A stretch of 61,919 bases of DNA, counting the filler, from Hausera hauseri (lineage: Eukaryota), in assembly GCA_046269625.1 (NCBI GenBank). It is 12 parts of 12 records of this genome, joined end to end, with 100 filler letters (N's around TTAATTAATTAA, not from the genome) between each part and the next. Parts side by side here need not be neighbours in the genome. Positions count along the whole stretch, not along the records: positions 29,320 to 33,719 come from JBJURY010600000.1; 11 more parts are not named here. The stretch is one strand, 5' to 3'. Positions within the stretch are counted from its first letter, which is position 1; each line of letters starts with the position of its first letter. Both the position numbers and the translations under genes were made by a program. This document shows positions 9,668-42,979 of this stretch, piece by piece. Under the pieces are notes generated by a model that was not told the DNA's origin, did not search any database, and was given only the letters and a program-made list of their open reading frames with translations.

Positions 9668-11960
9668 CATTGTTTTGCTTCGGATCAGCATGTCCTGTTT
9701 GAAACTGAGCACATATACCCTCATACAACCTCGACAATCCGTCTGCATTTCCACGATGTTCGCCCGTCCTATATTCTAGTGTAAAATTAAAATCGCATGT
9801 TTTCTAACCACTTCTGAAATTGTGGTGTTATTGCTTTGGTAGCAGTCTTAACATATACCAACGCCTTATGATCTGTTCTACCGTGAAGCGATTGCCATAC
9901 AGATACTGTTTAAAATGCAACATAAACTCGTGTAATGCCAACAGCTCCTTTCTTGTAACGCAGTAACCTTTCTCAAAAGATGAGATTGTTCTAGACTCAT
10001 ATGCTACTATCCTTTCTTCATTTCCTATTTATTGGCTGAGTGCTGCTAGGATTGCGCCAAACGATGCGTCTGTGTCCAAACTAAAATCATTCGATGGGTC
10101 CATGAAGGTTAATACTAGAGCTTCACATAGCTTCAGTTTCAACCGTTTGAAGCTTTCGTCACATTCTTTTGAACAAAGCAACTCTCTACAAGAACTCTTG
10201 CAAGCCTGATGCAACGGCGCCGCAGTGAGCGCGTAATTCTTGATAAACCTCCTGTAATAATTGACCAGACATAAAACACTCTCAATGACCGCATACAGTT
10301 TGGGACTGGACAATTCTGGATCTCTTTTGCTTTTAGTTGATTTGTTGACACTCCATGATTATTAATAGTAAGTCCGAGAAATATCAACTCCGAAACACCA
10401 AATATATTTTTTGGAATTTCCTTTTAGATTTGCATTTTTCAACCTTATCATCACCTATTCTAGTAATTTTCAATATTCCGAAATAGTCTGAGTAAATCAG
10501 CACGTCCTCCAAGTATATGACAACAGTCACAAATAGTAAAACTTCGAACAGTGTAATTATCAGTTGCTCAAAGGTTCCAGGAACCGTTGGGAGGCCAAGT
10601 TGTAGTCGGTTGAAACCATATTGTTGTGATTTCGTGCAAAATGTTGTTTTCTTTTGGGAGTCTTCATCTAATGTGACGTGATCATATGTCTTAACGATGT
10701 GTATACTTGGCAAATTCTTAAACCGCCTACCGCATCAAATAAAATCTGATTTGCCGCATTGCAAAGAAAATTTTCTTTGCTATTTCATTTAACTTCCTAA
10801 AATCCCAACAGATTCGGATTCCTCCGTATTTCTTTTGAGCGACCACTAAAGGCGAATTCTATTAACTTTTGCATTTCTGAATAATATCCGATTTGTCAAG
10901 GTCTTTCAAAAATTCTTCAATTTTATCTTGCAGATATACTAATTGTCTTCTACAATTTAAAAAAATTGGTCTACCCTCTGTTTCGATTCTGTTTTACCAC
11001 ATCCGTAAATGGTAAACCGTAATCATGTTTCATAAGCACCTCATCATAGCATTTTACAACTTTCACTAATTGATCTTCCACGATTTCCGGTTTTTCCATT
11101 CTTGTCATTGCTGCTATCTCTCGTTCGAGATCCACTAACGCCGGTTTTTATTAATTTCACACAAAATGCCTTTAAAATATCTACACCCCAACAGCTTCCG
11201 GTTTGATTGTTCAGTATTATGTACGTCAGCATCCCGCTCCACATTGACTTTTACCTTCCCAAAACAACCATCACTTCAAAAACGCTCCACTCAATATCAA
11301 AGAGCACTTAGTTAGCCTAGGTTGTCCTATCGCCTTCTAAATATTTTTACTGATTACTGACACACTGGCTCCACTATCCAACAACATTTCTATTCCACAC
11401 TTGTTCAATTTCACTTTACTTCACCACCGTCCGTCGTTCCCCACTAACATTGCTGCATCTCTATTTTGTAAATTTTCTACGTCAACTACACAGCAGATTA
11501 TTTCATGTTTAAAGTTTCCTGCATGTCGTCTTCATATAGCACTATTTCATCTCTATGGTCGTCATACATCTTTTCCACACACATCGGATTTACGTGTTGA
11601 AATTTGAACAGTTTCTAAATCCTTGTCCACTTCTCCACATATCAAACATAAGTTGTTTAAACGTCAGTTTCTTCCAACATACCCATGTTTTCCACAGCAA
11701 AACAAGTTCCTTTAGATAGCCCTACCTCTTTCGGCACTGGTAACTGTTTCAAACGGCAGTAGAGAACTTCGTGATATACAGAATGCGTTGGAAGTTGTCC
11801 TCCCATCTGTTATTGAAATGAAATGTGGTTTCTTGTCCTGAGCAATATCAATATTCATCGACCTCTTTTCAAACCTTTCTTTTCTCGAATATTCTGCTCC
11901 ACGGTTGAGTATTTTTATTTTATCATAAATAAAAATTTGTGCATCAACACATTTTGACTT
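9668..11960 (-). mobile_element. pol: Heavily decayed Ty3/Gypsy gag-pol (Zn knuckle, protease, RT, RNase H)
   Basis: CFCCGKHG; MLLDSGASVS; IYLEDVLIYS; NYYRRFIKNYA; LDTDAS; CVTRKELLA; NADGLSR. Confidence 0.9.
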
Positions 11961-12059: not shown

Positions 12060-13610
12060 ACATATGATAATGTTGCATTTGTAAGCCAAAGAAGCTGAAC
12101 ATCTTTCGTTTGAATGTTTACTTTACTCGAAAGGAAAATGCTACACCATGCTGGAGGGGAAAAGATAACCAGGATGGAATACATACAAAGTAAAAAGAAG
12201 GTATGGGGATAATCTGTACAGAAGACGGGAATTCGCAAAGGTAGACAAAGAAGAAACAGAATCGGAACAGGAGTCTGTTGCCCCAAAAGGCGGAGCCTCG
12301 ATAGAAGTGGAGCAAATCGGGTCACTACAATAGATTCAGTCTCCCAAAATATAGTAGCAGTATATCAAACAGTATAGACGGATCAAGAAAAAAGGGACAC
12401 GGAGATATGTTGATGGATAAAAGCACACACGGAAAAGTAAGGAAATTTATGAAAACGGCAAATTTCCAGGAAGTATCCTTCAACGGAATGGGGGAAAGTG
12501 GGAACGATACGCAGATCTTCACGCTAGACGAATTGTATATCGAACAAATATCATACATGAAGTTTAATGGACGAGCAGGAATCAAATTAAGGGTACAAGA
12601 CAGATGGAAGATTGCTTATTTGACACACGGAGCCAAGGTAAACATCATAAGCAAAAAGGTCTTGGATAAACTTTCAAACACACACATAGATAAATCAGAT
12701 ACCACACTACGATGCACGAACAATAGCCCCTTACATTGCCTGGGCACTTACAACTGACGTAGAAATCAAGGGTCTAAGGAGACGTGTGACATTTCTGGTA
12801 GTGTCGGAAATATGACCAGAAATAATAGGTGGTGTGGACCTGCAAAAGGCGTTCGGAATAGAACTGGGGTGGAAACGCGGGGAAATGGAAACGTTACAGC
12901 AAGATATATGCAACCTCGAAGCCAAGTTCGGCCGTAAGGTGAGTAACCAAGAATGAATCAATAGGGCGAAGGAAGCTATTCAGGTGAGTGACAACAAAGA
13001 GTTACTCAACATTATACAGAAATACCCAGAAGTATTCATAGCCGACAAGTGGGACATAGGGTGTACATCTCTCATCAAACACCGAATAGACACGACAGGA
13101 GCGCCGATTAATATCAAACCTCAGAGGCAACCAGTAAACCTAGAAAGAAAGATCGACGAGACCATCCGAAACCTATTGGAAAACGCAATTATCAAGCCAT
13201 ATAACTAAGAATGGAATACACCAATGATATGCGTATGGAAGAAAGACAATAACGATGTCAGAATATGCCTGGACTTCAGAAAACTGAATCTTATAACGGA
13301 ACGGCAGGCCTTTACCATGCCTAACGTAATAGAGATATTGGACAGGTTATACGGGACAATGCTTTTCACGTCAATCGACCTAGGGAATGCATACTACCAA
13401 GTCGAGTTAGAGGAAGACTCCAAATTGAAGACGGTGTTTTCAACCAAATTTGGACAGTTCTGTTTCAACAGGATGCCATTCGGCATAGCAGCAGCTCCCG
13501 GCACCTTCCAAGAGCTAATGAATAAAGTACTATGGGATATTGAACAAACAGTGGTATACCTAGATGATATACTAATCTTCTCTAAGACTCTAGAAGAGCA
13601 TTATAGGATA
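12060..13610 (+). mobile_element. pol: Second Ty3/Gypsy gag-pol fragment (protease and RT), head-to-head with the first
   Basis: HRIDTTGAPINIKP; RICLDFRKLN; SIDLGNAYYQV; RMPFGIAAAPGTFQ; YLDDILIFS. Confidence 0.93.
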
Positions 13611-15299: not shown

Positions 15300-18200
15300 T
15301 CAAATGTCCATACGCCCAACTCTTATTTCGCTCCACCCACTTTCGTTTATCACTGTTACATGAAAAGCGACTTTCTCACTAATTATTTTATACAGCTGGT
15401 GCGCAATTGATTGGATGATCGTTTGAGATACAATAACCACTGATTGTCCTCCTTCTGCTGCTGCTGCTTCACATATACGGCGATAATCACCGTGGCCGAT
15501 TTCTATCTGTCCCAGCTGAACTCTTTTTGCCCGCATTTTCGGTCCACAGACCTTCAGAAGACTGTAGCACTTTTGGCGTAGGAATATCTATTCCCGTTAC
15601 CGGATACGACCTTAACTTTCATCCTTGAAGCAGCCGATTTTATTGGTGATCGCGCTGCTGTACAACAGATGATCCGGTGGGTAGTTGGACGTGTCCAGTA
15701 ATCCATCTGACTTCATTTGCTGCAACAGCTGTTCGCAATTGACGTTTTCAGCCGCAGGAAAAAACTTTCTGTGTCACCAGCAATTATGTCAATATTGCAG
15801 CCGTCAAACACTTGCCGGTAACGTGCCAAGTCGTGATACTGCAGCTCATACGTCAACAACTTGCTCATGTCCAATACCACTTATTCAGTGTAACTTAGCC
15901 GGTCCAGAACGACTTCTTCCTTGTTTGGCAGCACCGCATCCAATCCATTGGCAATGTACATTGACACCGAAACTGTGCCTTGCTGGTATACGTAACCAGC
16001 GGCTTTTTTGAGTTACATAGGCACATATTGAGCCGCTTTTCCACATTATGCACTGTTTTTCCGTACATGGAATTGTTTTTCAGCTTGTAGTAGTCCTTTT
16101 TGAACTTTATACAAACTGCGGCTCATTTCTCCTAATTTCCATCTATGTACGCCTTGAATATGGGAGCCTGAACAAATCAGATTGCACGATGCAGCTGTGT
16201 GACGCGTACACCGAGCTGCATGTGGAACTGTAGCAGACGCCAAGGGACCACATAATTCAGCTTTAGTTCATGCGTCATGAGCAGTTTCTTCACTTTTGAG
16301 CCTGACGGACACTGATTAAATGGTGCGACCGGTAATTCGTCCAAAACGTCATGCAGCTCATCTGGTATCTGGAGATCGACCTCCATCAGGCCTTCGACTG
16401 AACCTGCCATGTCTGCTCGTGGTAGGTTGATCATTATATCGTCCAGGTCTTGTCTGTCGACTACCCATTCAAATGAATCATACGGCAAGGGTTTTGAAAG
16501 CGCCCAGCCGTACAGGTTATTAATATCAATATAAAGCAATGATGTGATATCGGTAGCACTGATCTGATGTTTGTTGACAAATGTCATGCTGTCGCGAATA
16601 CCAAAAATCAACATTCGGTACATTTCCGGGTCCTGCAGCAGCTCAATGTCTCAATTCAGTGACATTAGATCTGACATCCAACTCATCCCCAGTGTGGAAT
16701 GAAACTGAATGGCTCCAACCTATCTTCCGACAGCGCTTTGGTCCAAAATGCTTCGAACACGTCGCCTAATAAGTACACGTCCAGTTTAAGATACTGGAGC
16801 ATGTAATCCAACATGTTTCTACAGCCCAATTCTCTCCAAGATTCTTCTGCTCTCGGATATTAATCTTCTGCGATACCTGTCCATCGTGGTGGTAATTCCT
16901 CTGCTGTCTGGAGTCGCTCATATGATGTTGCAAAGTCATATGGGAATATGCCTTTGCTGCGTTCAATATGTGCAGTGAACTGCGTCAGTGTTATCGGCAC
17001 ATCTGGTAAGGCATTTACCAGCTTTGCCAATGATTCATTGAGAAATTGCAATGAATCAAGGAAGCGCACTTTGAATTAGTTTACTCGTGTCGACAGCGAT
17101 AGGTATTTCTCCATTGCCGTTGGGATTATGGACAATTCCCAGTGAGGAAAGCCGTTAATGGCCCGTTTGAGAATATGGTGACAGTCATGACCTCGGAAAT
17201 TATGAAAGATCACCGGCAGGAATGGTTGCACTCGCCTTGCTAAATTGCGTGAATTGCACGCTGCTCCAAAGTATCGACCGGTGAAATTGTCATGATCCGG
17301 TACGAGCCGTTCCTGTAAATCAAACGGTATTATTTTTTGTCACAGGTAGCATTCATCGGTGACAGCGAAAAGCAACGGTTGATATTCGTCTGCCAAAATC
17401 AATGCCTTGTTGCAATTGTTGCGATAACACGGCGCGATTTCCGTTTCCACTATGGTTTCCAACTGCTGCAAGAAATCACGTACACAGTTCCAGCCATGGA
17501 AAACGTAATATTGCAGTTGTCCGGCGGCTTCTATTGGTACTAGCAACATACCGACGACGATTGGAACGTGCTTTTGATCGTATGTATTGTGCTGTGGTAG
17601 AATTGCTTCGATATCGGCATACACCACATGTACCGGACTGTCCGTTTTAGGCCAGTAACTGAATCTGAGCTCCTCTTTGACGGGCATGACGTACATTGTT
17701 GTCCCTGATGCGTTTTGCGTGCATAACGTGACATATTTCTCCCATGTTGTTTCAGATCTGAATCCATGCAGACATACAGCACATCATTTGAATCGTATTC
17801 GCTTTTTGATGAAATGGTCATGCTCCATATTCAACAGTCTAGATTTGTCAGTTCCACGTAATGAAATTTTTCGGACTGCTGCAACAGCAACAAATTTACC
17901 GAGCGTCCATTCGGGTTCCGTCTGCGATAAAATATGTCAACATGGGGGTTCTTATAAATTTCTTCGTCTTCCGGTATTTTAATTATTTTGTTCCACCTGA
18001 AAATGTTGACTGACAGCGTCGGATTACACTGTTCAAAAGCCGGAATGGTTTTCAGTTTCATCAGCATCTAGTATTCATCAAATTGAAATTCGGAAAAATA
18101 CTGCCGATACTGATTTGGACGATTTGCATGATATATGTTCACTTCGCTGTACTTCAATACAACCAGAATACTGTACAGAAAACAGTATTCATCATCACTA

Positions 18201-19857: not shown

Positions 19858-21040
19858 TTTAAATACAACTACTTTTATAGAAACGTCTAAAGTGATTAAT
19901 TATAGTAGATCTATACCGTCTACTATGGGTAATAGTTCTTTAAGTACTTCTGAATCGACCTTCGTCAAATCGACAGTACCGAATAACGTAAAGTCGGTTC
20001 ATTCTTCAATCCTGACATGTGAAAGTGAGCCAACGAAATCAACTAACCATACATTAGTAATACCGTCACATATGGATGATATTTCTTTCAGTTCACCTAT
20101 ATCGTATTTTTCAAAATCGTCTATTACGAGTAATATTGCATCAGCTGAATAATCCGAACGGGCTGACAGTAGTACTCTAACAGAGGTACCAAATGTGTAT
20201 GGAACGTCGACATCTGTACCAAACCAGACACAAAGTATTATATTGAGTAGTATTGCATCAGTTCATCCTTTAACCAAAACCGCTGAAACACGATCTTCTA
20301 ATATTACTAAAGACTGTACATCTACTCCATCAAATCTAATTAACACGTCATCTAGTAGTTCTTTATCGACATCCTCGAAATCGACCATGTCGCATAACCT
20401 TACATCCTTTTGGCCTTCACACTCGTCAAAAATGACTAGCGGTAGTACTCCTACACAGTCTTATGTGAGTAATGGTCCTTTGACTACATTTTTATCGCAT
20501 GTTTCGACACCGTTAAGTCTGGATAACTTCACCTCAATTCAGCCCTCTACAACGCGACTTCAAACGAGATTGTCACTATCGCCTAATAGGAGTTCTCTGA
20601 TATTATCACACGAAAGCTATAACTTTACGCCATCATCTAAACCAAGCCAAACAGTATGGAAGGTACTAAGTATGTTTACAATAGTTCAGTCTTCCAAGAC
20701 GGCTGTTGCGACTGAATTATCGGACATGTTTAACAGTAGTGCTCTCATGAATATACATATTAATAATGGTTCAGCAAGAACCCCTATATCGACCTTGTCC
20801 AAATCGACTGTATTCGATAATATTACAACAACATATGAGGCATATGGATCTCTGAATACATCTATTATGAGCGCCGATACATCAGTACATCCGTCAATCA
20901 CGACTCCTCTTACAGAATCGTCAAAATCTGTTTACGACAGTACATATATAGGTATTGGTTCTACGCGTACATCTGCATTGAATTTCTCTTCATTTATCAA
21001 GTCCTCAGACACAATGCTTCCAACCGAAACTTTAAAATCC
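19858..21040 (+). pseudogene. Ser/Thr-rich mucin-like coding sequence (probable host exon), one in-frame TAA at 20150-20152
   Basis: ORF 19892-20152 and the first 280 aa of 20195-22366 share a frame; internal diverged repeats (STxxKSTxxxN; SVHPxxT). Confidence 0.6.
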
Positions 21041-23250
21041 TGCACTCTGAATTTTGGTGCCAGACCTGCCGGGGCGGAGGTCCCGACCGCCAACCCTGCG
21101 CCGGTCGGTCGGGGGGCACCTTCGATGTCGACCCTAAATCACGCCCCCAGGCACACCACTACCTCCACCTCCATTCTCTTTTTTTATAACAACATTCACA
21201 TATATACCCTCCATACTACACACCCGCATATCCCCATCTTTCAAACCAAACTTTCTTCTATCCTTGGTTCTTCTGACTTCTATCTTAGCCATCACATTAT
21301 TATCATACACCTCAGCGAAACTTTACCTTCCTTTTTAAATCACGCTTGGTTCAACATATATCTCCATATCCGTGGTGGAATGAATTCCCCATCAACTATC
21401 GACACCACGGATACAACCACCATAAAAAAGCCAATACCCATTCTCTACCACTCCAAACCAAACCCTCCACTTTCTTCCATCGATGCAAATCCCCATAAAA
21501 ATCCTACCCATACTCCACACTGCACTGAATACTTCATAGATAATGAAAAGTCCAGTAAAACCTGGCTTTACTTTCATCAACTGTGGTTACAGTCTAATGG
21601 TATCACAGATTCTTTATCTAAAGCCCACAGCCTACTCTATCTTCTCCCAAATTCCATAAAAGCCTCAATACATAACTTGTTAGACATTTTTCAGCACCCC
21701 GACCCTTACACCCAACTATTCGACGCTGTATTAAAACAGACCGAACCTTCCATTGACTCCATAATGCAGCGTTTCTTTAACGAAAATGCAATGGGCACAC
21801 AAAAACCCAGTGACTTCTTACGCACCTCATTAGCACACTTGCGTAATTTTGGAGTAACTAAGGAACATAACCCGGATCTTTTACGCCATTATTTTCTGAA
21901 TGCCCTACTTATCCAAATCCGGGCCCTTCTTACCGTGGTGGAAGACTTCACGCAGCTTGAAAAATTGGCCGAATTGGCCGATAGGACATACGATGTCCTA
22001 CACATAAATTCACAACCAGTAGTTTCAGCAGCAGCTGTTGCTAACGACATAGAAACAACTAACACACCCATAGAACAGCAGCTTAATCAGCTACGAGCTG
22101 AAAATATTGCATTGCAGGCAACTATCAACAACATAAATAATAAATTAAATGAATTGTCTTTGTCCCGACGAGGGGGTTTTGCCGCTTTCCGTACCCGTTC
22201 TACGTCACGAAACCGCTCACCATCGCCTAAGCGTTCGTCGATCTGCTACTACCACAGCAGATTCAACACAAATGCTCAGAAATGCTGCCTGAGTTGCCAA
22301 TTTTATAACCAGAAGTTTTTCTCGGACACCGTTGTTTGCATTTATCACGCGAGATTCAAAAATTAAGCACGTAAATGTATCCCTGGCTGTACCTTCAAAT
22401 CCAACACGAACGAAGGACGTACTGCCTTCATTTCTCACAGTCGTCCCACTTCATCTTTCGAAAAAAATAAACTTCGCCGCCAGAGGTCACGGCAAACTCT
22501 GGCAAAGGCACGCTTTCACATTCTGACCGCCGACACATCTCTTTCGCAGTCTTTACTCTAAAGGCTGCAATCACTGCCCCTTCAACTCAATCTCTAAACT
22601 TCCTTATTGATACAGGGGCCGCAATTTCTCTATTACCGCAAACCTTTCTTACACAAAACTCTCCATTCAAACTTAAGCCTTTATATACTGATTCAGGCCA
22701 GCTGCTGTACATCTCGGGCACAGCTGCATTATCTTTTACCTTGCCTGCTTTCTCTGCGTTTTTCCGCTGGACGTTCACAGTCGCTAACGTCCAGTCGGCA
22801 ATCCTAGAATCTGACTTTCTTTCACATTATAATCTACTGGTTGACTGCAGCCAGCGATGTTTGAGGAAAGGCACCGTTGGCGACATTTCTGGTCATGTAA
22901 ATAGCGTTTCGACTACCGCGCAGTCGACTGTGGGGCGGAAGTCAATCTTAAAAACGTCTGTGAATAATTCGATTTTTTATAATAATTCGAATTTTCATAG
23001 TAATTCAATTCGGAAATTTTTAAACAATAACACTGATATAAGATCGAGATTTGATGTCGATAAGTGTGGTACTGCCACCAACGCTAACTCATTCGACGAA
23101 AATAGCTCAGTCAACACCATTTTCAATTCAACCATCTTACACCAAATACCACTTGACTGCACGTCACATAACCACACACATCGCATCCGCTACTTCTCAA
23201 ACCGTTTCATCACTTTCACCGAATCTCTCACAGCCACCTACAAAATAACT
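21041..23250 (+). mobile_element. gag: Truncated Ty3/Gypsy element: leader, gag (DUF7041-like, two CxxHxxF..A..C...C knuckles) and protease
   Basis: WL...WLQSNGITD..KAH.LL.LLP; KPSDFLR; LAELAD; CYYHSRF..AQKCCLSC and CIYHARF..*ARKCIPGC; FLIDTGAAISLLP; ILESDFLSHYNLLVD. Confidence 0.9.
22462..22503 (+). promoter_or_regulatory. Mutated gag-pol -1 ribosomal frameshift signal
   Basis: A AAA AAT in the gag frame, 7-nt spacer, then GCCG/CGGC and CCAGAG/CTCTGG pairings; pol is in the -1 frame. Confidence 0.6.
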
Positions 23251-24002
23251 AACAATTATCTGTGTTTAATGTTTAATAAAATTGTAAGTCTTTTGTGTTG
23301 TTACTTAGATAGTTATAAAACAACAAATTTTATTAGATTACGAAAAAATCTATTAGATTACAATGTCAGAAATTGGGAAATAGGGGTACCCTTGAGAGGT
23401 CCATTTTTATGTCGAGGGTAAATTTTTCGTGGTGGGACCAATTTTTCTCGAGGGGATTAGTTTTTCGGAGGTCTTTGTTCTAAGGGGTAGGAATAGTAAA
23501 ACCCAACATAGATAACAAAAGTCTTTGTTCTATGGGGGTAGTGGTCTTTGTTTTAGTGGATGGGAATAGTGAAACCATTCTGCGCCAGGTGTTAGGGTTT
23601 ACCGAATACTGCTCGCTGATTAGTCAGTTTCCCGTACCCCCGATGACGTGTGCTCTTCTCATTGGCCAATTAAAAATTACTATATACATTGCTCTATTTC
23701 TATTGGTTGCTCATTCTCATTTTCTACACATATTTTCTATCTAAAATTTAGGTTTAAAAATAGAATATATATAAATAAAATATTAATTATACTACTTACA
23801 ATAATAAGTGTGTAAAGAACAAAGGCACTACGTACCTGGATATTATTACATAAAGACAAATTCCAAGAATTAAGCCTAACAAAGGCACTTAGTCAATAAA
23901 AACACATTTTTAACCTATTTTCATTATTTGAAACTTTTTAAAATAACAACATTCTCTTAAAGTATTTAAATTCATTTTTATACTCATTTAAAAATATTCT
24001 AA

Positions 24003-24761: not shown

Positions 24762-27690
24762 CAGAAAAATGTCTTTTGGGTTGTAGATATTACGACGAAC
24801 GTTTTGCGATGGACAGTCCTATCTGTATTCACCACACAAAATTCCACTCTTTAGCCAGATGGTGTGTTCCGGGATGTAAACATTACAAAAACAACTTCAG
24901 TTTTTCTTCATCTTCTTCTCCTCCTCCTTCTTCTTATTAGTCATCTTCTTTTCCTCCACAATCTTCAAAAAACTAAAAAGGCCGCCAGATGTTACGGCAC
25001 ATTTGGGCATAGGCAATACTGCTCAGTCTTCTGGACGTCTTAACACCGCCTCCGCAGTTTTTCTGTTAAAAGCTGCACTATTCTCTAGCAAAACTCCACA
25101 TATCGATTTTCTCATCGATTCAAGATCTGCCTTTTTACTCCTCCCTTTGTCCTTCGTCCCTACATCAATGGCAGTTTCTTCTCCGCTTTTGACTGCCAGC
25201 GGTCAACCTTTGAGAATCGCAGGTACCACGGAACTGGTTTTTACATTTTCAAACTTACCAGGCAAGTTTGTCCGAAAATTTCACGTGGCCAATGTTAAAT
25301 CGCCAATAATCGTCCCAGATTTTTTGGCCGCACACGATCTGCTAATTGACTGCAAGTATGGCTGTTTGTTACGTAGAGACTCCCTCGTGAACGTTAGCAA
25401 TTGTCTAACAGACAGCTCAACAGGCCAATCGTCTGCGAACTCACACGTGAATTTTGCAAACTGCCCGTCGGTTGATAACGATACATCTAGTATTTTATTT
25501 GTTTTCTCAATTACACCTCAAATATCGACGTCGATTTTAAAACAATCGGTTAAACCGAATGTTGACGGCGGCGATGTCGTTCGTTCTTCGCCAATCACAG
25601 TCACCGCCTCCTCTGATAATAGGCCTCAATCCTTTATATCACTAGATTCCAATCTCAAATCTTACATCATTTTTTCTTGTTCTCGCATACTCAAAAATGA
25701 CTCTAGCTTTAAGCCCCTGTCAACAACTTATTACCACATTGTCACTCAACACCAAAGACCTATCAGACAAAAGGTGAGACCATTATCGCCTCGTAGACGA
25801 AAAGCCGTGGAATTAGAGTTTAACGAACTCGAAAAATATGGTATCATTCGGAGGTCCAAATCACCATGGGCTTCACCACTACATGTAGTAGCAAAAAAGG
25901 ACGGTACTTTTCGACCATATGGCGACTACCGTCTAGTAAACAATCTAACCATCATGGATGCTTCCCATTACCGCTCATAAAAGACATCCTGCACAGTCTT
26001 AACAACACCAATACCTATTTAACAATAGATCCGCACAAAGCCTACCATCAAATTCGCGTTGAACCTGATGACATTCCAAAGACTGCTGTCATCACTCCAT
26101 TTGGCCTTTACGAATACATATTTATGCCATTCGGTTTACGTAACGCAGCCCAAACTTTTCAACGCCACATCGACACCGTTCTCTCAGGCCTTGATTTTGC
26201 TCATCCTTACATTGATGACATATTAGTTGCCTCCAAATCCGTGAAACAACACCATGAACATCTCCGAATTATTTTTCAGATTACATTATAGCAACTTACA
26301 AGTTAATTTCTCCAAGTGCAACTTCTTTCAGAAACGTGTCAAGTTCTTAGGCTACATTATCACTCCTCACGGCCACTCTTCACAACCTGATCGACTACAG
26401 CAATTAAAAAACGTAACACTACCGACGACCACTACAGATATGAGAAGTTTTCTTGGCACACTACATTTCGCCCATAAGTACAAATCGCATTGCTCTGAGC
26501 TTACAGCACCTTTCGCACACCTCTCATCCGGAAAGAAAAGACAGTTAATTCAATGGACTCCCGATTTAGTCACCAAATTCGATCACTTACGTGAAGACCT
26601 AAACACCGTCGAAATACTGGCATACCCAAAACCCGACGCGGAGCTAATACTTACCACCAACGCCTCTACCACAGTTACTGGTGCAATACTACACCAAATT
26701 TCCAACGGCGTCGACGAACCTTTGGAATTTTACTCTCCAAAACTCAAACAAACAGAAAGCCAATATTCTACATTTAATCGTGAGCTACTAGCCATAGTTC
26801 TGGCAGTAAAACATTTCAAGCATCTCCTCGCCCGTCCATTTATCATCCAAACAAATCACAAGCCTCTGCTGCACATCATGTCACTAAAACAGCCATCACC
26901 GGGGCAGGAATGACAGATATCGTACATTTAGTTTTGTCATAAAGTATATTTCAGGTACTGAGAATTTGGTCGCTGATTTCCTGTCACGGTCGATCGGCTC
27001 AATTACGGTTGAACCAATATTTTCTACCGAAATTCTAAAGCTCAACCAGCCGTCTGCCGATATTGTTAGCTCTTTAAATCCTTTGAAATCATTGATGGCA
27101 CTGTGTACGACACATCTAACCCCGATAATAAAAAAATCATTATCGCTCCTTCTTTGCAGAAAGCAGCTTTCCTTCACACATTCACTTCATCATCCAGGCT
27201 CAAAAGCCACGTTTCGCTTGCTCCAACGTCATGTAGTTTGGCCATCAATGTGCACAGATGTACAGGGTTGGGTTAAGGAATGCGTCGCCTGTCAAAAATA
27301 CAAAGTCAACAAACATCTTAAACCGCCGCTTTACCATTTCCCATGTACATCACGTTTTCATACCGTCCATCTTGATCTTGTCGGACCTTTATCTTTCGAC
27401 AACGGGTATCAACATATTCTCACTATGATGGATCGTGCTTCTCGCTGGCCTGAAGCCGTCCCTCTCCGTTCAACAAACACTGATTCAGTAGCAGACGCCT
27501 TCATCAAAATCTGGATCAATCGCTTTGGATCCCCACGGCACATCATAACGGACCAAGATCAGCAGTTCGAGTCAGAAATTTTTAAATCGCGTGTTAAATG
27601 CTTGGAGATATCACATTTCCATACAACACCGTACCATCCGCAAGCAAATGGACTCTTTGAAAGATTCCATTGAACTATGAAAATTTCTTG
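24762..27690 (+). mobile_element. pol: Ty3/Gypsy gag C-terminus and pol (PR, RT, RNase H, integrase), frameshifted
   Basis: CIHHTKF..ARWCVPGC; FLIDS; SPWASPLH; GDYRLVN; MPFGLRNAAQTFQ; YIDD; RELLAI; VADFLSR; HLDLVGPL; YHPQANGLFERFH. Confidence 0.95.
24967..25008 (+). promoter_or_regulatory. gag-pol -1 programmed ribosomal frameshift signal
   Basis: A AAA AAC heptamer directly before the gag TAA; 7-nt spacer; GCCG/CGGC and CCAGATGT/ACATTTGG pairings; pol is open in the -1 frame. Confidence 0.8.
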
Positions 27691-29319: not shown

Positions 29320-31108
29320 ATCAGTACTGACTGAGCCATTGAGGGGAAGCATCCTAACATAATTTGCCAAGTACAACCACGTACTTTCTTTATACTTCAA
29401 GCGGATCCTATTTGTATTAATATGACCAGTATAGTATAAATTATAACTTATATACCAAAAACTCCAGATGTAACTTGACCAAAAATAAGGAATTTACTCC
29501 AAAAGTCGTAAAGAATCTTTCTGGCTGTTCTTTCTAGATGATCAACTGGCAGCAACATTCCGTAGTTAGGCACACCGTCTGGTCCTTTAGTAACAGTATA
29601 CACAAATTTTTTAATAACTTTTCTCCGATATTCTGAAATAATACTTGCTTTCTTACCGCCTCTAAGTCGGTTAATGAATAAAGTCCACTAGTAGGGAGTT
29701 ACCTGTTTACTTTAAATTTCATAGCTATATCTAACGGTAATAATCCAATGGTTTGAGGAATGTTCGTCGTAGCCGGTGGACGTGTCTTAATCCATCGTCC
29801 GTCATTAAGCTTAAAAGTTGGATAAAAATCTTTGTAGCATAGTGCAAAAGTGATTTCGGTAGGTAATAACAATTTTCGTGTAATCGGGTCTACATACCCA
29901 TATTTGTCTATATTTTTATCTTTGTTCCGCACCATCAGTTCATTCGTACAATTTGCTGTTGGGGATGTTACTGGTGTTACTTCTATGGGCGGACATCGAT
30001 ATACATGAAGTATTTCTCCCTGTACCCTACCAAATATTCCGTGGTGATAACCCATAATCAAAGCGATATATTCGGGAAATTGCCTAGCTAATATCAAGTC
30101 ATGTTGGTTCAGTTTCTGAGCAATTTTACCATCATGTTATACAACTCGATAAAATGCATTTTCGTAGTATAATAGATATAATCTATCTTTTTATTCGTAT
30201 ATAAATACCATTTTATAACTTCAGTTGGTAGCTTTCAAGTATTCACTAGTGTTTCTTTTGTTACAAACAAGTCTTCATAAGATGTTGAATATACCGCGTT
30301 TGATCCACAAGTGGATACTGCTCCCTTGCGTGTTAATACTATTCCATCTTTATCGTTGGATGACATCAATACTTTCAGGGAAGTGGTTTGTTTTAGAGTT
30401 CGTGGGGTAGGTAGACTTATGTTATGGTTGTGTTCTGGTTCCTGGTATTCATCATCATAGTACAGATCGCCTTGTATTTCATACATAGATACTTGTTTCA
30501 GGAAAGCTAATGGACATATCATAATCGTCTTTTCCCAAACTAAAGTAGATTCTCCCAACATGCATACCCCATCAGAATACGTACAGGATGGTCAACATTT
30601 TTCCTGTAATCGCATCTAAGTTTACTTTGTATTCTTTTAGAGTGACAGTATAATCTTCTATTTGCACTACGGAGGATTCCTTTTGACCATTTATCATCAC
30701 CTTTTCCCCTTCGCAACCTCCTCCATACCCAAGCCATATTTTTCCAGCTGTAACTATTCGTGAGTGAACTCGTTTTCCTATACCTGCTTGTACTGGTTGT
30801 TTTAGTCCTACGTGAATTGAATCTACAGCCTTTCTACAAATTGCAGCAATTATTGTTACAGGTTTGGGTAATCCTGGTGGGATAATCACTGAATTCCATG
30901 AATTATGACCACAATTGTAAGCGAATGTTACTTTATTAACTTGGCATTCCTTTACTTGAACTTGTTGATAACTGATTCTCTGATACAAATTGTAATTGTA
31001 AGGACCCTCTTTTTTCACTGATATTGGATTCGCGTTCTGACACTTAAATATATCCATTAACAAAAGTCTGTCTGTTATTTCTGGTTGGGAACAATCATAA
31101 GCTTCCAA
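29320..31108 (-). pseudogene. env: Chuvirus-like class III viral fusion glycoprotein (Env-like); frameshifted, cut at contig end
   Basis: KA|LEAYDC, ECQV...YNCGHNSW, CTYSDGVC.LGESTLVW...CP, CG..VYST, LYTNKKIDY, GEILHVYRC, CTNEL.V, YVDPITR, C-terminal FWSKFLIFGQVTSGVFGI TM region. Confidence 0.88.
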
Positions 31109-31756
31109 TGCTTTGGTCGTTTTCAAGCTGCTCACGGCTATTAAGTATAATAGTAAATGAATGATTTGCACTACCCAATCTGAGATGTTGGTATCCTTGG
31201 GGTATATTAGTGTAGTTGGATCGAATCTCTTGAGAATTTCATCCCAACCACCATGTTTAGTTACCCAATCTTTTGTCAACTTGTCCATATGGTAAGCTAA
31301 TTCCTTTACCGTGTGATGTAGTTTAGCATCAATTTCCGTTTGATTTTTAAAACTAACCACTATACATCCTAGTGCCATCAATAATCGATTCTGATTACAA
31401 TATTTTAATAACCGTGTCAGTGCTTTATTTAAACCTCCTTTCATTTCATATTTATGTAATAACCTCGTGATTTGTGATGAAAATTTTCTGGCAGTTTCTA
31501 TTATGGACTGTAACGGAAATGTTGTAATAGCTGGTATTTGCTTAAGTTGTTATGGGTTTGTTTTCTTAATTAATTGCTCCAGAAGTTCATGAGTTGTCAA
31601 TGTCACTTCTGTTATATTTGTGTTATTCTGATTTGATGTACCCGGCATTGGATTTTGTGTTGGTTCATTTTCATCATCACTGATGGTGAATCGTTGTAAA
31701 TTGTCATATAATATATCTTCTAATGTTTCCCGTTGTTCCCTGCGTTTTCGTGACAA
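31109..31756 (-). pseudogene. Bcl-2-like domain plus hydrophobic signal/anchor, in frame with the glycoprotein (one TAA at 31550-31552)
   Basis: BH1-like LLKYCNQNRLLMALG, BH2 DWVTKHGGWDEI, BH3-like LQSIIETARKF; TM/signal VVQIIHLLLYLIAVSSL. Confidence 0.7.
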
Positions 31757-31804
31757 GGGTCTTTTCTTTCTTTGCCTTTCTGGTTTTTCTTCCTCTTCGG
31801 GTTT

Positions 31805-33280
31805 TTATTTATCACCACTTACTGGGTTAAATTCGCACTTCCGCGGTCTTCCTTCTTTTTTCTTGATACCTATTGCCATAGTAATCTGATAGGTCTTTCC
31901 AGTAGGTAGTCCATAGTCCACAACATAATCATTATCAACGGCCAATCTACCATAAACATCAGTTTTTGCTATTATATTGGTTTCAAAATCTAATTCATCT
32001 AGTACCTTTCTTCGAAGATCCAAAAATTTAGTAAACATTCCTGCTGTAACTTCAATTACTTGTTCTCGCTTGTTGATTTCAATTTCTATATTTATAATAT
32101 ATGGTTGCTTTCTTCTAAGTTTCCGTTTTAAATCTCTTCCTAGCGTCTTTAATAATTTTCTTGCGGCTAAAAAACAAAATATATTATCCTTTGTTAGTGG
32201 AATAAGTAATGATGCGTATTCTATTCGATTAATTAATGGTAGTGTTTCATATTGTCGTAAAGCGTCCCATACCTCATAGGGTGCTGAATCAGTCATTTGT
32301 AATTTGGCTTCAATTGTATTGATTGTTGATTCCAGAAGTTCATCGTATACTATGGAACCTGGTAAAATATTCATTTCTGGAACAAACTCTTGATTTTCAG
32401 TCGGAAGTTGGAAAGTGTCTGACGGAGATATAAGTTCATAATCTAAGACTTCAAACATTTCATCTTCGTCTATTATTATTTGGAGTTCCTTCTGGGATGT
32501 ACTCGGTTGCATTGTGTCTCGAATATTTTCAAATAATGTTGGTTGTTGTGGTGGAGCCGTTGGTTGGATGAATGGTGCGACAAACCTATCGTCATACGGA
32601 TCTATCCATTCTCCAGTTGGTCTAATTCTGACAGGTTTTTGTGAATATTTATCAGCATCTATATCTGGATATCTTTGAGTTATTGGTTCAATTACCGGGA
32701 TTGCTCTAGCTTTTCCAGTTTTCTCTAATTCTCCTATTGTTGGAAAAGCTATTCGTAACATCTTTCGGCTTTCTTGTATCCATGGTACATTATATTCCAC
32801 TCGCACTGTTTTTAGATATTCATTTAAGCATCTTTGTGCCATTATTTCCGAATAATGGCCATTATATAGGTCCAAACATTTGTAGTTCCTGTTTGTCTGT
32901 TCAAAGTCATAGACAGCGGTTAGATTTTCTGGATTTATGTTCATTGTATTTAACAGTTCCGGTAATCGACGTCCAACAATTATTTTTCCTAGTAAATATC
33001 TATTTATAAATTCACTTACCGATTCTTGTCGTTGTGGATTGAACCGTCTGCTATATTCCGTATACTTAGTAGTATCCGGTATGTTTGGACATACATCAAT
33101 ATTGAAGATTGTTTTTCCTTCCAGATTCTTGGCAGTGACCTGAGTAAGTCCTTTTTGGTTCCCTCTAGTTATGCATCTGACAGTAACAATTATTTCTCTG
33201 TCTTGTATCGTAGGTTTATCCACAGTTAACACGGGTGTTTCCTTAAGCAAGTGTATTAAATATACCGGGTAATTATCCAA
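31805..33280 (-). CDS. 491-aa polyprotein segment: inactive DEDDh (ISG20/REX4-like) exonuclease fold, acidic linker, ubiquitin-like domain
   Basis: IIVTVRCIT...QVTAKNLEGKTIFNIDVCP...LLGKIIVGRRL...GHYSEIMA; INIEIE...IEV...LDLRRKV...YGRLAVDNDYVVDYGLPTGKTYQITM; same frame as the Bcl-2/Env ORFs. Confidence 0.6.
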   Translation of the reverse strand: MDNYPVYLIHLLKETPVLTVDKPTIQDREIIVTVRCITRGNQKGLTQVTAKNLEGKTIFNIDVCPNIPDTTKYTEYSRRFNPQRQESVSEFINRYLLGKIIVGRRLPELLNTMNINPENLTAVYDFEQTNRNYKCLDLYNGHYSEIMAQRCLNEYLKTVRVEYNVPWIQESRKMLRIAFPTIGELEKTGKARAIPVIEPITQRYPDIDADKYSQKPVRIRPTGEWIDPYDDRFVAPFIQPTAPPQQPTLFENIRDTMQPSTSQKELQIIIDEDEMFEVLDYELISPSDTFQLPTENQEFVPEMNILPGSIVYDELLESTINTIEAKLQMTDSAPYEVWDALRQYETLPLINRIEYASLLIPLTKDNIFCFLAARKLLKTLGRDLKRKLRRKQPYIINIEIEINKREQVIEVTAGMFTKFLDLRRKVLDELDFETNIIAKTDVYGRLAVDNDYVVDYGLPTGKTYQITMAIGIKKKEGRPRKCEFNPVSGDK

Positions 33281-33719
33281 AGGTTGAATGTGATAGTCTC
33301 ATTTATAAGGATATTTAAGAAGTATCTTTGTTTCTTTGAAACTATTACCGTTTTATTATTAATTTGCAATCGAACTTCTCCCTGATTGGTAATTATAGCA
33401 CATGGTGGATCCTTTCTTTTGATTCGAATTTCAGCCCTTTTACTGTAGATCTTATCAATACCTCCCATGCAAATCGATCCTTGTTCAGCGATATCCGCAA
33501 ACCCTATTCTATCAGTTTTCTTGTCTTCAAACAGTTTATCCCATTTCTGAACAATACTTATGTCCATGTGCTGTAATACTGCTTCTGGAATTAAGGTAGT
33601 ATTACATGTTATTTCATATAAGGATTATCCATCGTTCTTATGCAAAGGTCTACTTGGAAAAATGAAGTATGGAGATCCTTGACGGTTAAGTTTAATCTGA
33701 TACTCTTGTCGTAAATTAT
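33256..33719 (-). pseudogene. Upstream continuation of the same polyprotein (frameshifted, unknown domain)
   Basis: ORF 33256-33567 overlaps the 491-aa ORF; its frame continues, with one stop, to the contig end. Confidence 0.45.
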
Positions 33720-34029
33720 NNNNNNNNNNNNNNNNNNNNNNNNNNNNNNNNNNNNNNNNNNNNTTAATTAATTAANNNNNNNNNNNNNNNNNNNNNNNNN
33801 NNNNNNNNNNNNNNNNNNNATTAAACAAGATATTTTAGAAGTATTCTAATACTGTATCAACCAATTCTAAAGTACATTCATATAATTATACAATGAAAAT
33901 TAGGAACATATTTCAATCACCATGAGCATAAATTATCAATAACTGTCTAAATAGACTGTGGGAAAGAATACAACAGAGGATTAAAATCATCACTTAAATA
34001 TTAGGTCGAAATTTATTGATTTTTTAGAT

Positions 34030-34560
34030 TTCTGGTTACGAAATCACAAATATTGAGATTCGTGTATTGCCGCGTCATTATTCGAGAAAGAATTTGGATA
34101 GAGGTTCCAAAGCAATTTTCGACATTGAAGGTAAAGGTACAGTGGCATTGCGAAATGGACAGAGATTGTCCCAGCGTTTTAGTGAAGGCTATTTTGATCT
34201 TGAAGACAGGCCACGTTCCGGATGACCAACTGTTTTGGACGAAGGAGATTTGCAAGCAGTTTTGGATGTTGAGCCGTCATCAAGAACATGCGAATCGGCT
34301 GAAGAACTTGGTGTCGATCAGCAGACAGTTTGGAATCATCTGAAGCAACTTAACTTTTTCCACAAAAGGCCACTACAAGATCCACACGAGTTGACCGAAA
34401 TGCTAGCCGCTAAACGAATGGAAATTTGCGGCAAGTGCTCAATGATCCCTGGGATGACAGTTTTTGGAAACGAACTGTGACATCAGGCGAGAAGTGGGTC
34501 TACCTAGTCAATTATGATCGAAGAAAGTGTTTCGTCCCAAAAGGTCAAACTCCTTATCCA
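34030..34560 (+). pseudogene. Mariner (Mos1-like) transposase N-terminal fragment
   Basis: EDRPRSG*P; EELGVDQQTVWNHLKQL; DPHELT (WVPHEL); RTVTSGEKWV (TGDEKW). Confidence 0.85.
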
Positions 34561-35199
34561 ATAATTTCGAACTTCCAAAAAATTAAAATCATAAATATGG
34601 ATGCCTTAATAAGTACGATTTAATTTCCTACAATGATTGATTACATACATGAAATAAGAAATAAGAAAATATCCGTTCAAAACGTTGTAAATTCTTCATT
34701 TGGCATATATTAATACATCATTTTGCATCTGTTATTGTACAAAATTTTCCATTGGTAACAGAGCGCGGTTCTCTCTTCACTGTGATGGAGGAAACCGAAC
34801 CATAGACTCTGAGGTGCTGTCCTAAGGTGGAAAATTAGGGAAGTCCATATACGATAAGCTTGCGGAAGTTTGAATAAGTTTTATTCCTTCCAATTGCGAA
34901 GGAACAATAACAATTTTTCAGAGTTACCAAACTAAAGCGTAGAATTTCATCAAAATTTGCGTGAATATGAAAATATTGTTTCCGTTTAACAAGGAACCGA
35001 ACTTTACTGTCTGTGAGGAGGAATTTAAACGAATATCAATGTTTAAATTCAATTCAAAGTTAAATCAATAAACAGCCAATATAAATTCAGGAAATTCAAA
35101 AAAGGATGAAAAGAAGAATCATTTAATGAGTGAATGAGTTAATTGTTATACCAACTTTTATAATAAATTTCTAATGAATAATTCAGTCTTACAATCAGC

Positions 35200-41173: not shown

Positions 41174-42979
41174 TTACCCCCCCCGGTGGCAAAAAATGGC
41201 ACTATAGTAGACAGCGAGAATATGAACAGTAAATCGCAAAAGGAAATAGGTTTTCTGTTCTAATCGATTTTTATGTGTACTAGGCGTTGTACTTTGTCGA
41301 GATATTGCTCTCTACTGTACTTACTGAAAATAACTGCGTGTTCTGTTTTTCTGTGGTGTGTTTATTTGCTGAGATGTACGTAGGGGTGAAAGTTTTGTCG
41401 TATTTTGGGTTAATCGTTTGGTATTATTTTGGTTGGGGGAAGTGAGATTTGTGACAAACGATTAATTGAGGAAGAAATGGATGAAGAAGGTAATTAGTGT
41501 GAAATGGAAAATGACGAGTGAGGAGTATAAAATGGAGAATGTGAAGTAGAGTTGCAGATGAGAGAAGGGGAGTAGGAATTGGGACGAGAGAAGCAGAAAG
41601 TGATGAATGTGAAGTGGTGGATGGAACGTTAGCTGTGGAAGATGAGATGTGAGAGGTAACAGGTAAAGAAGTGGAAGTAGGGGTGGAAACATTAGAAAGA
41701 AAAGTGGGAATTGGGCCAGGAGGTAGTTGATGATTTGTTGATTTAGCAGGGAACGGAGTAGAAAAAAAAGAATCGAGAAAAGTGCCAGTGGAATTGGGGT
41801 TGTTTTATGTATCCTTAGGAGAGTCATCTACGAAAAAGGCAGGTTTTAGATAGGTGATGTGAACAGTTTGTTCTTCACCGCTTTTGAGAATTGTAGCTGT
41901 GTGAGACGATAAAGAAAGAAGTTTGAATAGCCCAACGTATTGTGGTTAAAAACTACCAGGTGAAGGATTTCGAAGCCAGACAAACTTGGCGGTATACAAA
42001 TCATTTGGTATATTTGATATGTTAATATTTACTATTTTGCAAAATAAGTCTTTGTTTAGTGTTACGAAGTGATCTTGGGTATTTCGTATCATTTCGTCTG
42101 CTGGTGTATCGTCCAGATCCCTTAACTCAAAAAGTGCTCGAATTGGTGTTCCAAACAATGCTTCAGCTGGTGCACAACCTGTGGTGGTGGATGGTGTGTT
42201 TCGCCAGCCAAGCAAGACAAGAGGTAGAAGAGCTGTCCAATTGCTGTGTGATTCAGGTAGGATTTTAAGTGAGATTTTCATTGTGCGGTGGAATCTTTTT
42301 AGTAAACCGTTCGCTTGGGGATGATATAGAGAGGTGTTTATGTGTTTAATTCCCAAACGATTGACTAAGGACTTAAAGAAATTTGACTCGAATTGTGTAC
42401 CTTGGTCCGTGATTATAAAGCGAGGGCAGACAAATCTGCTGATCCACGTTTTGATAAAGACCTCAGCGATAGTATCTGTGTTGGTGGAACGTAATGGAAC
42501 GGCTTCTGGCCATCAAAAAGAAGGGTTCATCATGGTGAGTATGAATTGATGACCGTTGTCTGGACGAAGAGGGCCGACTAGGTCTATATGAACGGATTTA
42601 AAACGCGACGTACAGGGGTAGTTATATAATGGTGGCTTTAGATGCTTGTGAGTTTTGAATTTTTGACATGTCGCGCATTCCTTAATCCAAGCCTGTACGT
42701 CTGATAAGCCTGTACGTCTGGCATCCGGATAACGAAGAGAATGTACGTTATGAAGTGCAGTTTTCTGCAAAGTTGGAGGCAAAATTGGTTTGTGATTACC
42801 GGGTTTAGAGGTGTCAGAGGCTATTCCGTCGATGATTTGGAGCCATTTAAAAGACTTAAGAATTTCCTGTACTGGTACATTTTGCTGAAACACTGCTTTT
42901 GAGAAAATGGGAGTGACTCCAATGATATTAACTGATCTCGACAAAAAATCGGCAACCAAATTGTCAGTGCCTGAAATAT
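40739..42979 (-). mobile_element. 3' half of a Ty3/Gypsy element (integrase, 3' UTR, PPT, LTR), same family as contigs E and F
   Basis: VADFLSR, CATCQKFK.HKHLKPPLY, HIDLVGPL, TDQGTQFES, YHPQANGLLKRFHR, PTVHIT..KPAF. Confidence 0.93.

What the first reader, a model, noticed from the sequence alone, without database searches (positions are those of the whole stretch)
29320..33719. Whole contig reads as one decayed multi-domain viral polyprotein (DEDDh-like, Ubl, NLS, Bcl-2, signal, class III G) from an unidentified carrier
Seen: ORFs 31805-33280, 31550-31756 and 30572-31444 are all in the same minus frame (offsets 1524 and 312 nt). They are separated only by single TAA codons in otherwise coding-like sequence (GDK*KPEEEEKPERQRKKR; TNP*QLKQ). 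Coding continues to both contig ends with no introns, giving well over 1400 codons. No RT, integrase, pPolB or RdRp is on the contig. Inference: an endogenous enveloped element that carries several captured host-type immune/cell-death domains in its env ORF.
Basis: partly seen in the sequence, partly recalled or inferred. Interest (0 to 1): 0.85.

Follow-up and report, generated by a model that had tools for sequence, protein, structure and literature searches.

The report
Decayed Burro-like enveloped retrotransposon polyprotein
This 4.4-kb piece is a broken copy of one long gene from a likely much-repeated, virus-like jumping element of an animal, whose relatives encode a capsid, several likely host-derived modules and a membrane-fusion protein in a single chain; the layout is already published for flatworm "Burro" elements, and only two likely inactive RNA-trimming domains look new.

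Summary
The three ORFs share a frame, and 4381 of 4400 bases align collinearly with one uninterrupted 1963-aa homologue, P0001. The copy is more decayed than reported: 8 stops and 4 frameshifts. The carrier is identifiable. P0002 (63% identical to P0001) joins a Ty3/gypsy-type Gag in frame to the same region with no pol between. P0003 shares the glycoprotein and the helical/Ubl module and carries PR-RT-RH-IN downstream of the glycoprotein. So this is most likely the middle of a gag-[accessory]-env-pol Ty3/gypsy polyprotein. The Ubl-BCL2-Env order is published for planarian Burro elements (PMC6431247), and GAG-ENV-POL gB-type elements are published for flatworms, bryozoans and nematodes (PMC13524379). 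I did not find two features in print: two ISG20-like domains lacking catalytic acids, and an R/N/S/D-rich tract where Burro has CCHC knuckles. The Bcl-2, Ubl and DEDDh calls rest on motifs and sub-threshold hits. Pol is not shown for this family itself. The scan found similar planarian elements on other DNA (e1-8073080, e1-8146890).

The parts
29320..33719 (-). Whole contig: decayed internal fragment of one polyprotein gene (8 in-frame stops, 4 frameshifts)
   Evidence: 4381 of 4400 bases in HSPs collinear with P0001 483-1957
33212..33714 (-). Unassigned region between the two DEDDh-like domains; broken by stops at 33627 and 33301 and a frameshift near 33335. The first DEDDh-like domain, the R/N/S/D-rich tract and Gag lie beyond the contig end in P0001/P0002
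   Evidence: 54% identity to P0001; no Pfam hit for 33334-33624 at E<=10; a weak PBECR1 hit (E 0.065) for the longer ORF 33259-33624
32786..33199 (-). Second DEDDh/ISG20-like domain, likely catalytically dead
   Evidence: Atlas feature hits RNase_T PF00929, best three 0.79-0.80, weak; Foldseek rank 2 human ISG20, prob 0.91, E 0.1, on a pLDDT-36 model of the homologue; motif view; 60% identity to P0001
32348..32746 (-). Poorly conserved Pro/acidic linker
   Evidence: 36% identity to P0001
32123..32347 (-). Small helical domain, unassigned; part of a module shared with P0003
   Evidence: pLDDT 69-84 over model residues 1-60; no fold match; module alignment z 8.2
31859..32110 (-). Ubiquitin-like segment (label by pattern and analogy; no significant database hit)
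   Evidence: 76% identity to P0001; homologous segment in P0003; no relevant Pfam hit at E<=10
31727..31870 (-). Basic/acidic tract (NLS-like, untested); TAA at 31805-31807
   Evidence: sequence; 55% identity to P0001
31214..31600 (-). Bcl-2-like helical segment with a BH2-like W-x4-GGW motif; TAA at 31550-31552
   Evidence: 4 of 5 PDB hits are Bcl-2-related protein A1/BFL-1, E 0.17-1.5; 76% identity to P0001; Pfam gave only Death, E 0.026
31109..31189 (-). Hydrophobic segment: likely internal signal sequence of the glycoprotein and tail anchor of the Bcl-2-like part
   Evidence: hydropathy peak at P0001 1336 and P0003 401; 85% identity
29520..31108 (-). Chuvirus/gB-type (class III) glycoprotein ectodomain; frameshifts near 30590, 30130, 29640; stops at 30237, 29701
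   Evidence: PF24664; 14 of 14 ectodomain cysteines of P0001 shared with P0003, 13 of these kept in the window
29415..29507 (-). C-terminal membrane anchor of the glycoprotein; stop at 29450
   Evidence: hydropathy peak at P0001 1904 and P0003 964; mapping
29320..29414 (-). Start of the post-membrane tail, running off the contig; stop at 29399. In P0003 the chain continues from here into protease, RT, RNase H and integrase
   Evidence: P0003 908-1020 aligns to 29657-29322; P0003 domains

Best explanation
The contig is a dead, broken copy of the middle of one long polyprotein gene that likely belongs to a multi-copy, Burro-like Ty3/gypsy LTR retrotransposon (errantivirus) with the gene order gag - accessory modules - env - pol. 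Shown: collinearity with intact P0001; Gag in frame upstream in P0002; pol downstream of the same glycoprotein in P0003. Inferred working of an intact element: one mRNA gives one chain. Gag (coiled coil, capsid, R/N/S/D-rich tract likely standing in for a zinc-knuckle nucleocapsid), two likely inactive ISG20-like domains, a helical/Ubl module and a Bcl-2-like domain stay in the cytosol. The hydrophobic segment behind the Bcl-2-like part would both anchor it in the ER membrane and act as internal signal, so that signal peptidase frees the glycoprotein into the lumen. The glycoprotein's own anchor would return the chain to the cytosol, where protease, RT, RNase H and integrase follow and the element's protease would cut the cytosolic parts. 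Particles would bud with the class III fusogen and move between cells. The Bcl-2-like part would most likely delay death of the producing cell, and the dead nucleases would bind or shield element RNA (both untested). The stops and frameshifts here are decay, not regulation.
For: P0001: 53% identity over 100% of the 497-aa ORF, E 7e-165, one ORF across all window breaks. P0002: Retrotrans_gag at 393-482 (E 8e-4, below the curated cut-off), in frame with a region 56-63% identical to P0001, no pol domain between. P0003: PF24664 at 407-1044, then aspartyl proteases, RVT_1 1909-2067, RNase H, integrase in one 3036-aa ORF. It is tied to this family by the glycoprotein (30% over 624 aa, E 4e-87, 14 of 14 cysteines) and by the helical/Ubl module (z 8.2, 0 of 1000 shuffles). 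Burro: Gag, Ubi2/SUMO-like, BCL-2, Env, PR in one frame (PMC6431247 section 7). GAG-ENV-POL gB-type elements in Nematoda, Bryozoa, Platyhelminthes (PMC13524379). Multi-copy: 14066 and 1757 contigs of two runs lie on all 30 bins, mostly 90-95% alike, changes mainly transitions. At the stop at 29701 other copies read differently (6393 of 6400 summed depth in X1, 208 of 208 in X2). The Ubl-like and Bcl-2-like segments are better conserved (76%) than the ectodomain (66%) and the linker (36%), as expected if they were under selection.
Against: No sequence of this family shows pol or LTRs: P0001 ends about two codons beyond the point where the contig ends, P0002 ends early. P0003 is distant, has no Gag in its ORF and no Bcl-2-like part (z 0.9, 173 of 1000 shuffles). 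No accessory domain reached significance: Pfam none; Bcl-2 E 0.17 at best, outranked by an unrelated designed protein; Atlas gave nothing named for the Bcl-2-like part; both models were poor (pLDDT 39.8 and 36.0) and Foldseek gave no E<=0.001. The Gag hit is below Pfam's cut-off. Host identity was not tested.
Confidence: 0.72

Rival explanations
1. A non-autonomous gag-env element: the ORF ends just after the glycoprotein anchor, and the element borrows pol from a helper (or pol follows in another frame or behind a stop).
For: P0001 and the window contig end within about two codons of each other. No protein holding both this family's accessory region and pol was found among proteins of 1079-3436 aa or 871-2485 aa, or among 1.84 billion representatives (2 hits).
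Against: Contigs are short (7573 and 6828 bp). P0001's ORF leaves 1681 bp of its contig, about the length of the missing Gag part, so it may simply run off its contig (not checked). A full gag-env-pol chain would exceed the lengths searched. P0003 continues in frame into pol at this point.
Confidence: 0.2
2. An integrated chuvirus/negative-strand virus segment, a BEL/Pao Anakin-type element or a Polinton-like virus that carries these domains.
For: The glycoprotein family PF24664 is named after Monjiviricetes. Chuviral glycoproteins sit in Pao elements (PMC7642597 passages).
Against: In-frame Retrotrans_gag with no CCHC knuckle and no pol between Gag and glycoprotein. The closest long protein with this glycoprotein has gypsy-order pol behind it. 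No relative in viral contigs.
Confidence: 0.04
3. Separate genes, or programmed stop read-through at the two TAAs.
For: The two TAAs fall near domain borders; their state in other copies of the family was not seen.
Against: P0001 has residues opposite all 8 stops; six further stops and four frameshifts are scattered through the same chain; first Met at residues 119, 53 and 36 of the three ORFs; one stop is private to this copy.
Confidence: 0.04

Closest known systems
Burro/GYPSM1 giant gypsy-like LTR retrotransposons of planarians (Arkhipova & Yushenova 2019, PMC6431247; passages and section 7 read; Grohme 2018 seen only as cited there)
   Same: One polyprotein with Gag, accessory modules, Ubi2/SUMO-like, BCL-2, then an Env resembling mononegaviral fusion proteins, in frame before PR; many copies; decayed fragments with stops and frameshifts are described for Dugesia japonica.
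   Different: Burro Gag has 2-3 CCHC knuckles; P0002 has none and an R/N/S/D-rich tract instead. Burro lists AIR1, Smc, MATH, BIR, ankyrin or midasin; here the interval holds two DEDDh-like domains, which that section does not list. No Burro sequence was available, so homology to Burro itself was not tested.
GAG-ENV-POL HSV/gB-type errantiviruses of Platyhelminthes, Bryozoa, Nematoda (Chary & Hayashi 2026, PMC13524379; abstract, part 1 of 2 of sections 5 and 6, section 22, passages, rows of supplement 1)
   Same: gB/chuviral-type ectodomain flanked by a signal or TM and a TM; Gag before Env; pol behind Env in P0003.
   Different: Main text has 0 hits for bcl, exonuclease, ubiquitin. The paper's sequences were not compared; supplements 2, 3, 5 and 6 were not read.
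Juno/Vesta LTR elements of bdelloid rotifers with DEDDy ORF3 (PMC5408684; passages)
   Same: LTR retrotransposons carrying a DEDD-family exonuclease.
   Different: There a separate ORF3 with intact catalytic residues, DEDDy type, in place of env; here two ISG20-like domains with the acids lost, inside the Gag-Env chain.
Anakin (BEL/Pao with chuviral glycoprotein; PMC7642597; passages)
   Same: Same glycoprotein family in an LTR element.
   Different: Pao backbone with GAG-PR-RT-RH-INT; here Gag leads through accessory domains to the glycoprotein without pol.

Membership tests
Burro elements | Env in frame between gag and pol in one polyprotein | tested here: inconclusive
   Gag-to-Env in frame by overlap of P0002 and P0001; Env-to-Pol in frame only in the distant P0003
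Burro elements | Ubi2/SUMO-like then BCL-2-like directly before Env | tested here: inconclusive
   Order fits, but Bcl-2 best E 0.17, Ubl without a hit, model unusable
Burro elements | retrotrans_gag followed by 2-3 CCHC knuckles | tested here: not met
   No C-x2-C-x3-5-H-x3-5-C in P0002 or P0001, and no cysteine in P0002 between residues 441 and 991
Burro elements | AIR1, Smc, MATH, BIR, ankyrin or midasin-like modules | tested here: not met
   None in P0001 or P0002 at E<=1; only weak coiled-coil-type hits before the capsid domain
Burro elements | Giant size (over 30 kb, ORF about 4900-5100 aa), planarian host | not testable with these tools
   No genome held for the window; no flanking loci found
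GAG-ENV-POL gB-type errantiviruses (Ty3/gypsy) | gB/chuviral-type ectodomain between a signal/TM and a TM | tested here: met
   PF24664, two hydrophobic segments, 14 shared cysteines
GAG-ENV-POL gB-type errantiviruses (Ty3/gypsy) | Gag upstream of Env | tested here: met
   P0002 Retrotrans_gag 393-482 (E 8e-4) in frame with the region shared with the window
GAG-ENV-POL gB-type errantiviruses (Ty3/gypsy) | Ty3/gypsy pol (PR-RT-RH-IN) downstream of Env | tested here: inconclusive
   Present in P0003 only; off the contig here; no RT tree built
GAG-ENV-POL gB-type errantiviruses (Ty3/gypsy) | Flanking LTRs and tRNA primer-binding site | not testable with these tools
   Contig is coding from end to end
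Anakin (BEL/Pao) | Pao backbone GAG-PR-RT-RH-INT with the glycoprotein | tested here: not met
   No pol domain between Gag and glycoprotein in P0002/P0001
Active DEDDh exonuclease (ISG20/REX type) | Acidic residues of ExoI, II and III plus His (motif recalled, not from a call) | tested here: not met
   By eye, both domains lack the ExoI and ExoII aspartates and the ExoIII aspartate; domain 2 keeps a His

The most novel reading that the evidence does not exclude
A high-copy animal retroelement lineage that makes capsid, two dead ISG20-like nuclease domains, a Ubl module, a membrane-anchored Bcl-2 mimic and a class III fusogen as one signal-peptidase-processed chain, has replaced its zinc-knuckle nucleocapsid by an arginine-rich tract, and has no pol of its own: an enveloped satellite element specialised in host modulation and cell-to-cell spread that borrows reverse transcription from a helper.
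Probability: 0.15. Interest if true: 0.65.

Novelty: new variant of a known kind. Interest (0 to 1): 0.35.

Why it matters
The architecture is known, so the main value is annotation: such fragments should not be read as chuvirus insertions or as an unknown carrier. It adds a variant in which the cargo between Gag and Env is a pair of likely inactive ISG20-like domains, with the Ubl-like and Bcl-2-like modules better conserved than the envelope itself. That supports the idea that these elements behave like complex viruses with exchangeable host-modulating accessories, and it names small natural domains in which the untested 'Burro meddles with apoptosis and ubiquitination' idea could be tested.

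Tried and rejected
No genome is held for the window. Related loci: none in viral contigs or in two metagenome scans, so no flanks, LTRs or pol for this family. HMMER over 1.84 billion representatives with the 713-aa non-glycoprotein part gave 2 hits, P0001 and P0002. AlphaFold on 2- and 4-row alignments gave poor models; Foldseek gave no E<=0.001 in PDB or BFVD; no VIA-align result was obtained. PDB sequence searches gave no significant hit. Atlas: weak RNase_T lead, nothing for the Bcl-2-like part. Troyka (PMC12440569, parts 1-3 of 5 read) rejected: no Troyka encodes an envelope. Sacco et al. 2022 (nematode elements) is not held and is known here only as cited in PMC13524379. PMC11410931 (passages) adds nothing. 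Pol fragments on other contigs of the window are only 28-39% identical to P0003 pol and cannot be tied to this family. No RNA holder listed. Rfam: 0 matches in the window. Summed contig depth is not a copy number and is used only as a sign of many copies.
Full report
Observation. The window is a string of contigs with N spacers, and 29320-33719 is one 4400-bp contig. On the minus strand, ORFs of 497, 84 and 325 codons share a frame and are parted by single TAA codons at 31807 and 31552. Two stops in 908 codons is far from chance (2000 shuffles: mean 69, minimum 43). The 325-aa ORF and two downstream pieces hit PF24664, a viral fusion glycoprotein family (E 5e-17, 8e-12, 0.015; 3 of 7 ORFs scanned).

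An intact homologue settles the one-protein question. Searching the 497-aa ORF among longer proteins gave 2 hits of 6730 candidates: P0001 (1963 aa, 53% identity over the whole query) and P0002 (1339 aa). tblastn of P0001 covers 4381 of 4400 bases in order, in five pieces, so the window copy has four frameshifts (near 33335, 30590, 30130, 29640) and 8 stops, each opposite a residue of P0001. The first Met of the three ORFs lies 119, 53 and 36 residues in, which does not fit separate genes.

It is a repeat family. Two public runs hold the stretch in part. 14066 and 1757 of their contigs lie across all 30 bins, most 90-95% alike, with transitions dominating. The tool warns that summed depth is no copy number; I take it only as a sign of many diverged copies. 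One stop (29701) appears among the 40 of 689 difference rows shown, and there nearly all other copies read differently (6393 of 6400; 208 of 208). The state of the two TAAs within the family remains open. The other contigs are rich in RT, RNase H, integrase and hAT fragments (11 of 58 ORFs with Pfam hits, all mobile-element type), as in a repeat-rich eukaryote. Earlier AI notes on the same assembly call the host a probable flatworm; I did not test this.

The carrier. P0002 begins with a coiled-coil region and a Retrotrans_gag domain (393-482, E 8e-4, under the curated cut-off). It continues through a tract rich in R, N, S and D without any CCHC knuckle into the region shared with P0001 (56% over 780 columns) and with the window (59-66%). 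No protease motif or pol domain lies between Gag and the glycoprotein. Searching the glycoprotein part among proteins of 1079-3436 aa gave, besides P0001, only P0003 (2 of 7408 candidates). P0003 is a 3036-aa ORF with the glycoprotein at 407-1044, then aspartyl proteases, C2H2 fingers, RT, RNase H and integrase. It shares all 14 ectodomain cysteines with P0001 and also the helical/Ubl-like module in front of the glycoprotein (z 8.2, 0 of 1000 shuffles), but not the Bcl-2-like segment (z 0.9). The window contig ends at the point matching P0003 residue 1020, so pol would lie off the left end and Gag off the right end. Against this: no sequence of the family itself shows pol, and P0001 stops about two codons past the same point, which is unexplained.

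Accessory domains. Evidence is suggestive, not significant. DEDDh-like: the Atlas's best three feature hits are RNase_T clusters at 0.79-0.80, a level that shuffled proteins reach a third of the time. A poor model (pLDDT 36) of the homologue shows two repeats of a beta-beta-beta-alpha-beta-alpha-beta-alpha pattern; its Foldseek rank 2 is human ISG20 (prob 0.91, E 0.1), with EXD2 and RNase D lower, among many irrelevant rows. The two repeats resemble each other (z 9.7 in P0002, z 3.6 in P0001; hhalign 64%). Against the recalled DEDDh motif, the catalytic aspartates are missing in both, so they are likely dead. Bcl-2-like: 4 of 5 PDB hits are A1/BFL-1 (E 0.17-1.5), centred on the BH2-like motif, while the top hit is an unrelated designed protein. 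Pfam gave only Death at E 0.026, and the Atlas nothing named. Ubl: no database hit; the label rests on pattern and on the Burro analogy. The Ubl-like and Bcl-2-like segments are 76% identical between window and P0001, against 66% for the ectodomain and 36% for the linker.

How it likely works (inferred). There are two hydrophobic segments: one directly after the Bcl-2-like part, one at the end of the glycoprotein. This gives cytosol - membrane - lumen - membrane - cytosol. The first segment would serve as tail anchor of the Bcl-2-like part and as internal signal; signal peptidase would free the fusogen; Gag, the accessories and Pol would stay cytosolic and be cut by the element's protease. Likely roles: cell-to-cell spread by the fusogen, delay of cell death by the Bcl-2-like part, RNA binding by the dead nucleases and the basic tract. 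None is tested. This copy is dead.

What is known. PMC6431247 (section 7 read whole) describes planarian Burro elements as one polyprotein with Gag, Ubi2/SUMO-like, BCL-2, then Env resembling mononegaviral fusion proteins, in frame before the protease, and mentions decayed fragments in Dugesia japonica. PMC13524379 (parts listed under Closest known systems) reports GAG-ENV-POL gB-type elements in Nematoda, Bryozoa and Platyhelminthes. DEDDy exonucleases in LTR elements are known from rotifers as a separate, intact ORF3 (PMC5408684 passages). It works like a Burro element, but fails two Burro features as published (CCHC knuckles; AIR1/Smc/MATH-type cargo), so I file it as a Burro-like GAG-ENV-POL errantivirus, not as Burro. 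A tandem of inactive ISG20-like domains between Gag and Env was not found in four literature searches (open-access library only; supplements of PMC13524379 mostly unread and Repbase not available). The scan's earlier notes e1-8073080 and e1-8146890 describe planarian elements of this layout on other DNA, the second with an exonuclease; a sequence look-up found no look-alike.

Verdict. Real feature, carrier identified with fair confidence (0.72), layout published; a new variant by its cargo. Interest 0.35.

Noticed in passing
P0003 (homologue, not in the window): One ORF with three aspartyl-protease domains (motifs at 1126, 1611, 2761), C2H2 fingers between the first two, and a second Ubl-like segment at the C-terminus behind the integrase (hhalign 32% to the N-terminal one); unusual for Ty3/gypsy.
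   Followed up: partly
window 29320 and the end of P0001: The contig and the P0001 ORF end within about two codons of the same point just behind the glycoprotein anchor; coincidence, an assembly break at a repeat border, or the true end of a gag-env ORF.
   Followed up: partly
window 51862-54475 (+): Fairly intact hAT transposase in two ORFs (DUF4371, Dimer_Tnp_hAT).
   Followed up: no
window 24880-27670 (+), 41949-42977 (-), 10032-10734 (-), 13209-13610 (+), 4434-4853 (+): Decayed RT, RNase H and integrase pieces of other LTR elements.
   Followed up: no
window 20153-23418 (+): 737-aa Ser/Thr-rich ORF followed by a 316-aa ORF with an aspartyl-protease-like DTG motif, no Pfam hit; likely a divergent gag-pro.
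   Followed up: no
window 16180-16650 (-): 157-aa ORF that by eye recalls a Polinton-type DNA polymerase B fragment (recalled; no Pfam hit).
   Followed up: no
window 34000-34623 (+): Broken pieces that by eye recall a mariner transposase (recalled).
   Followed up: no
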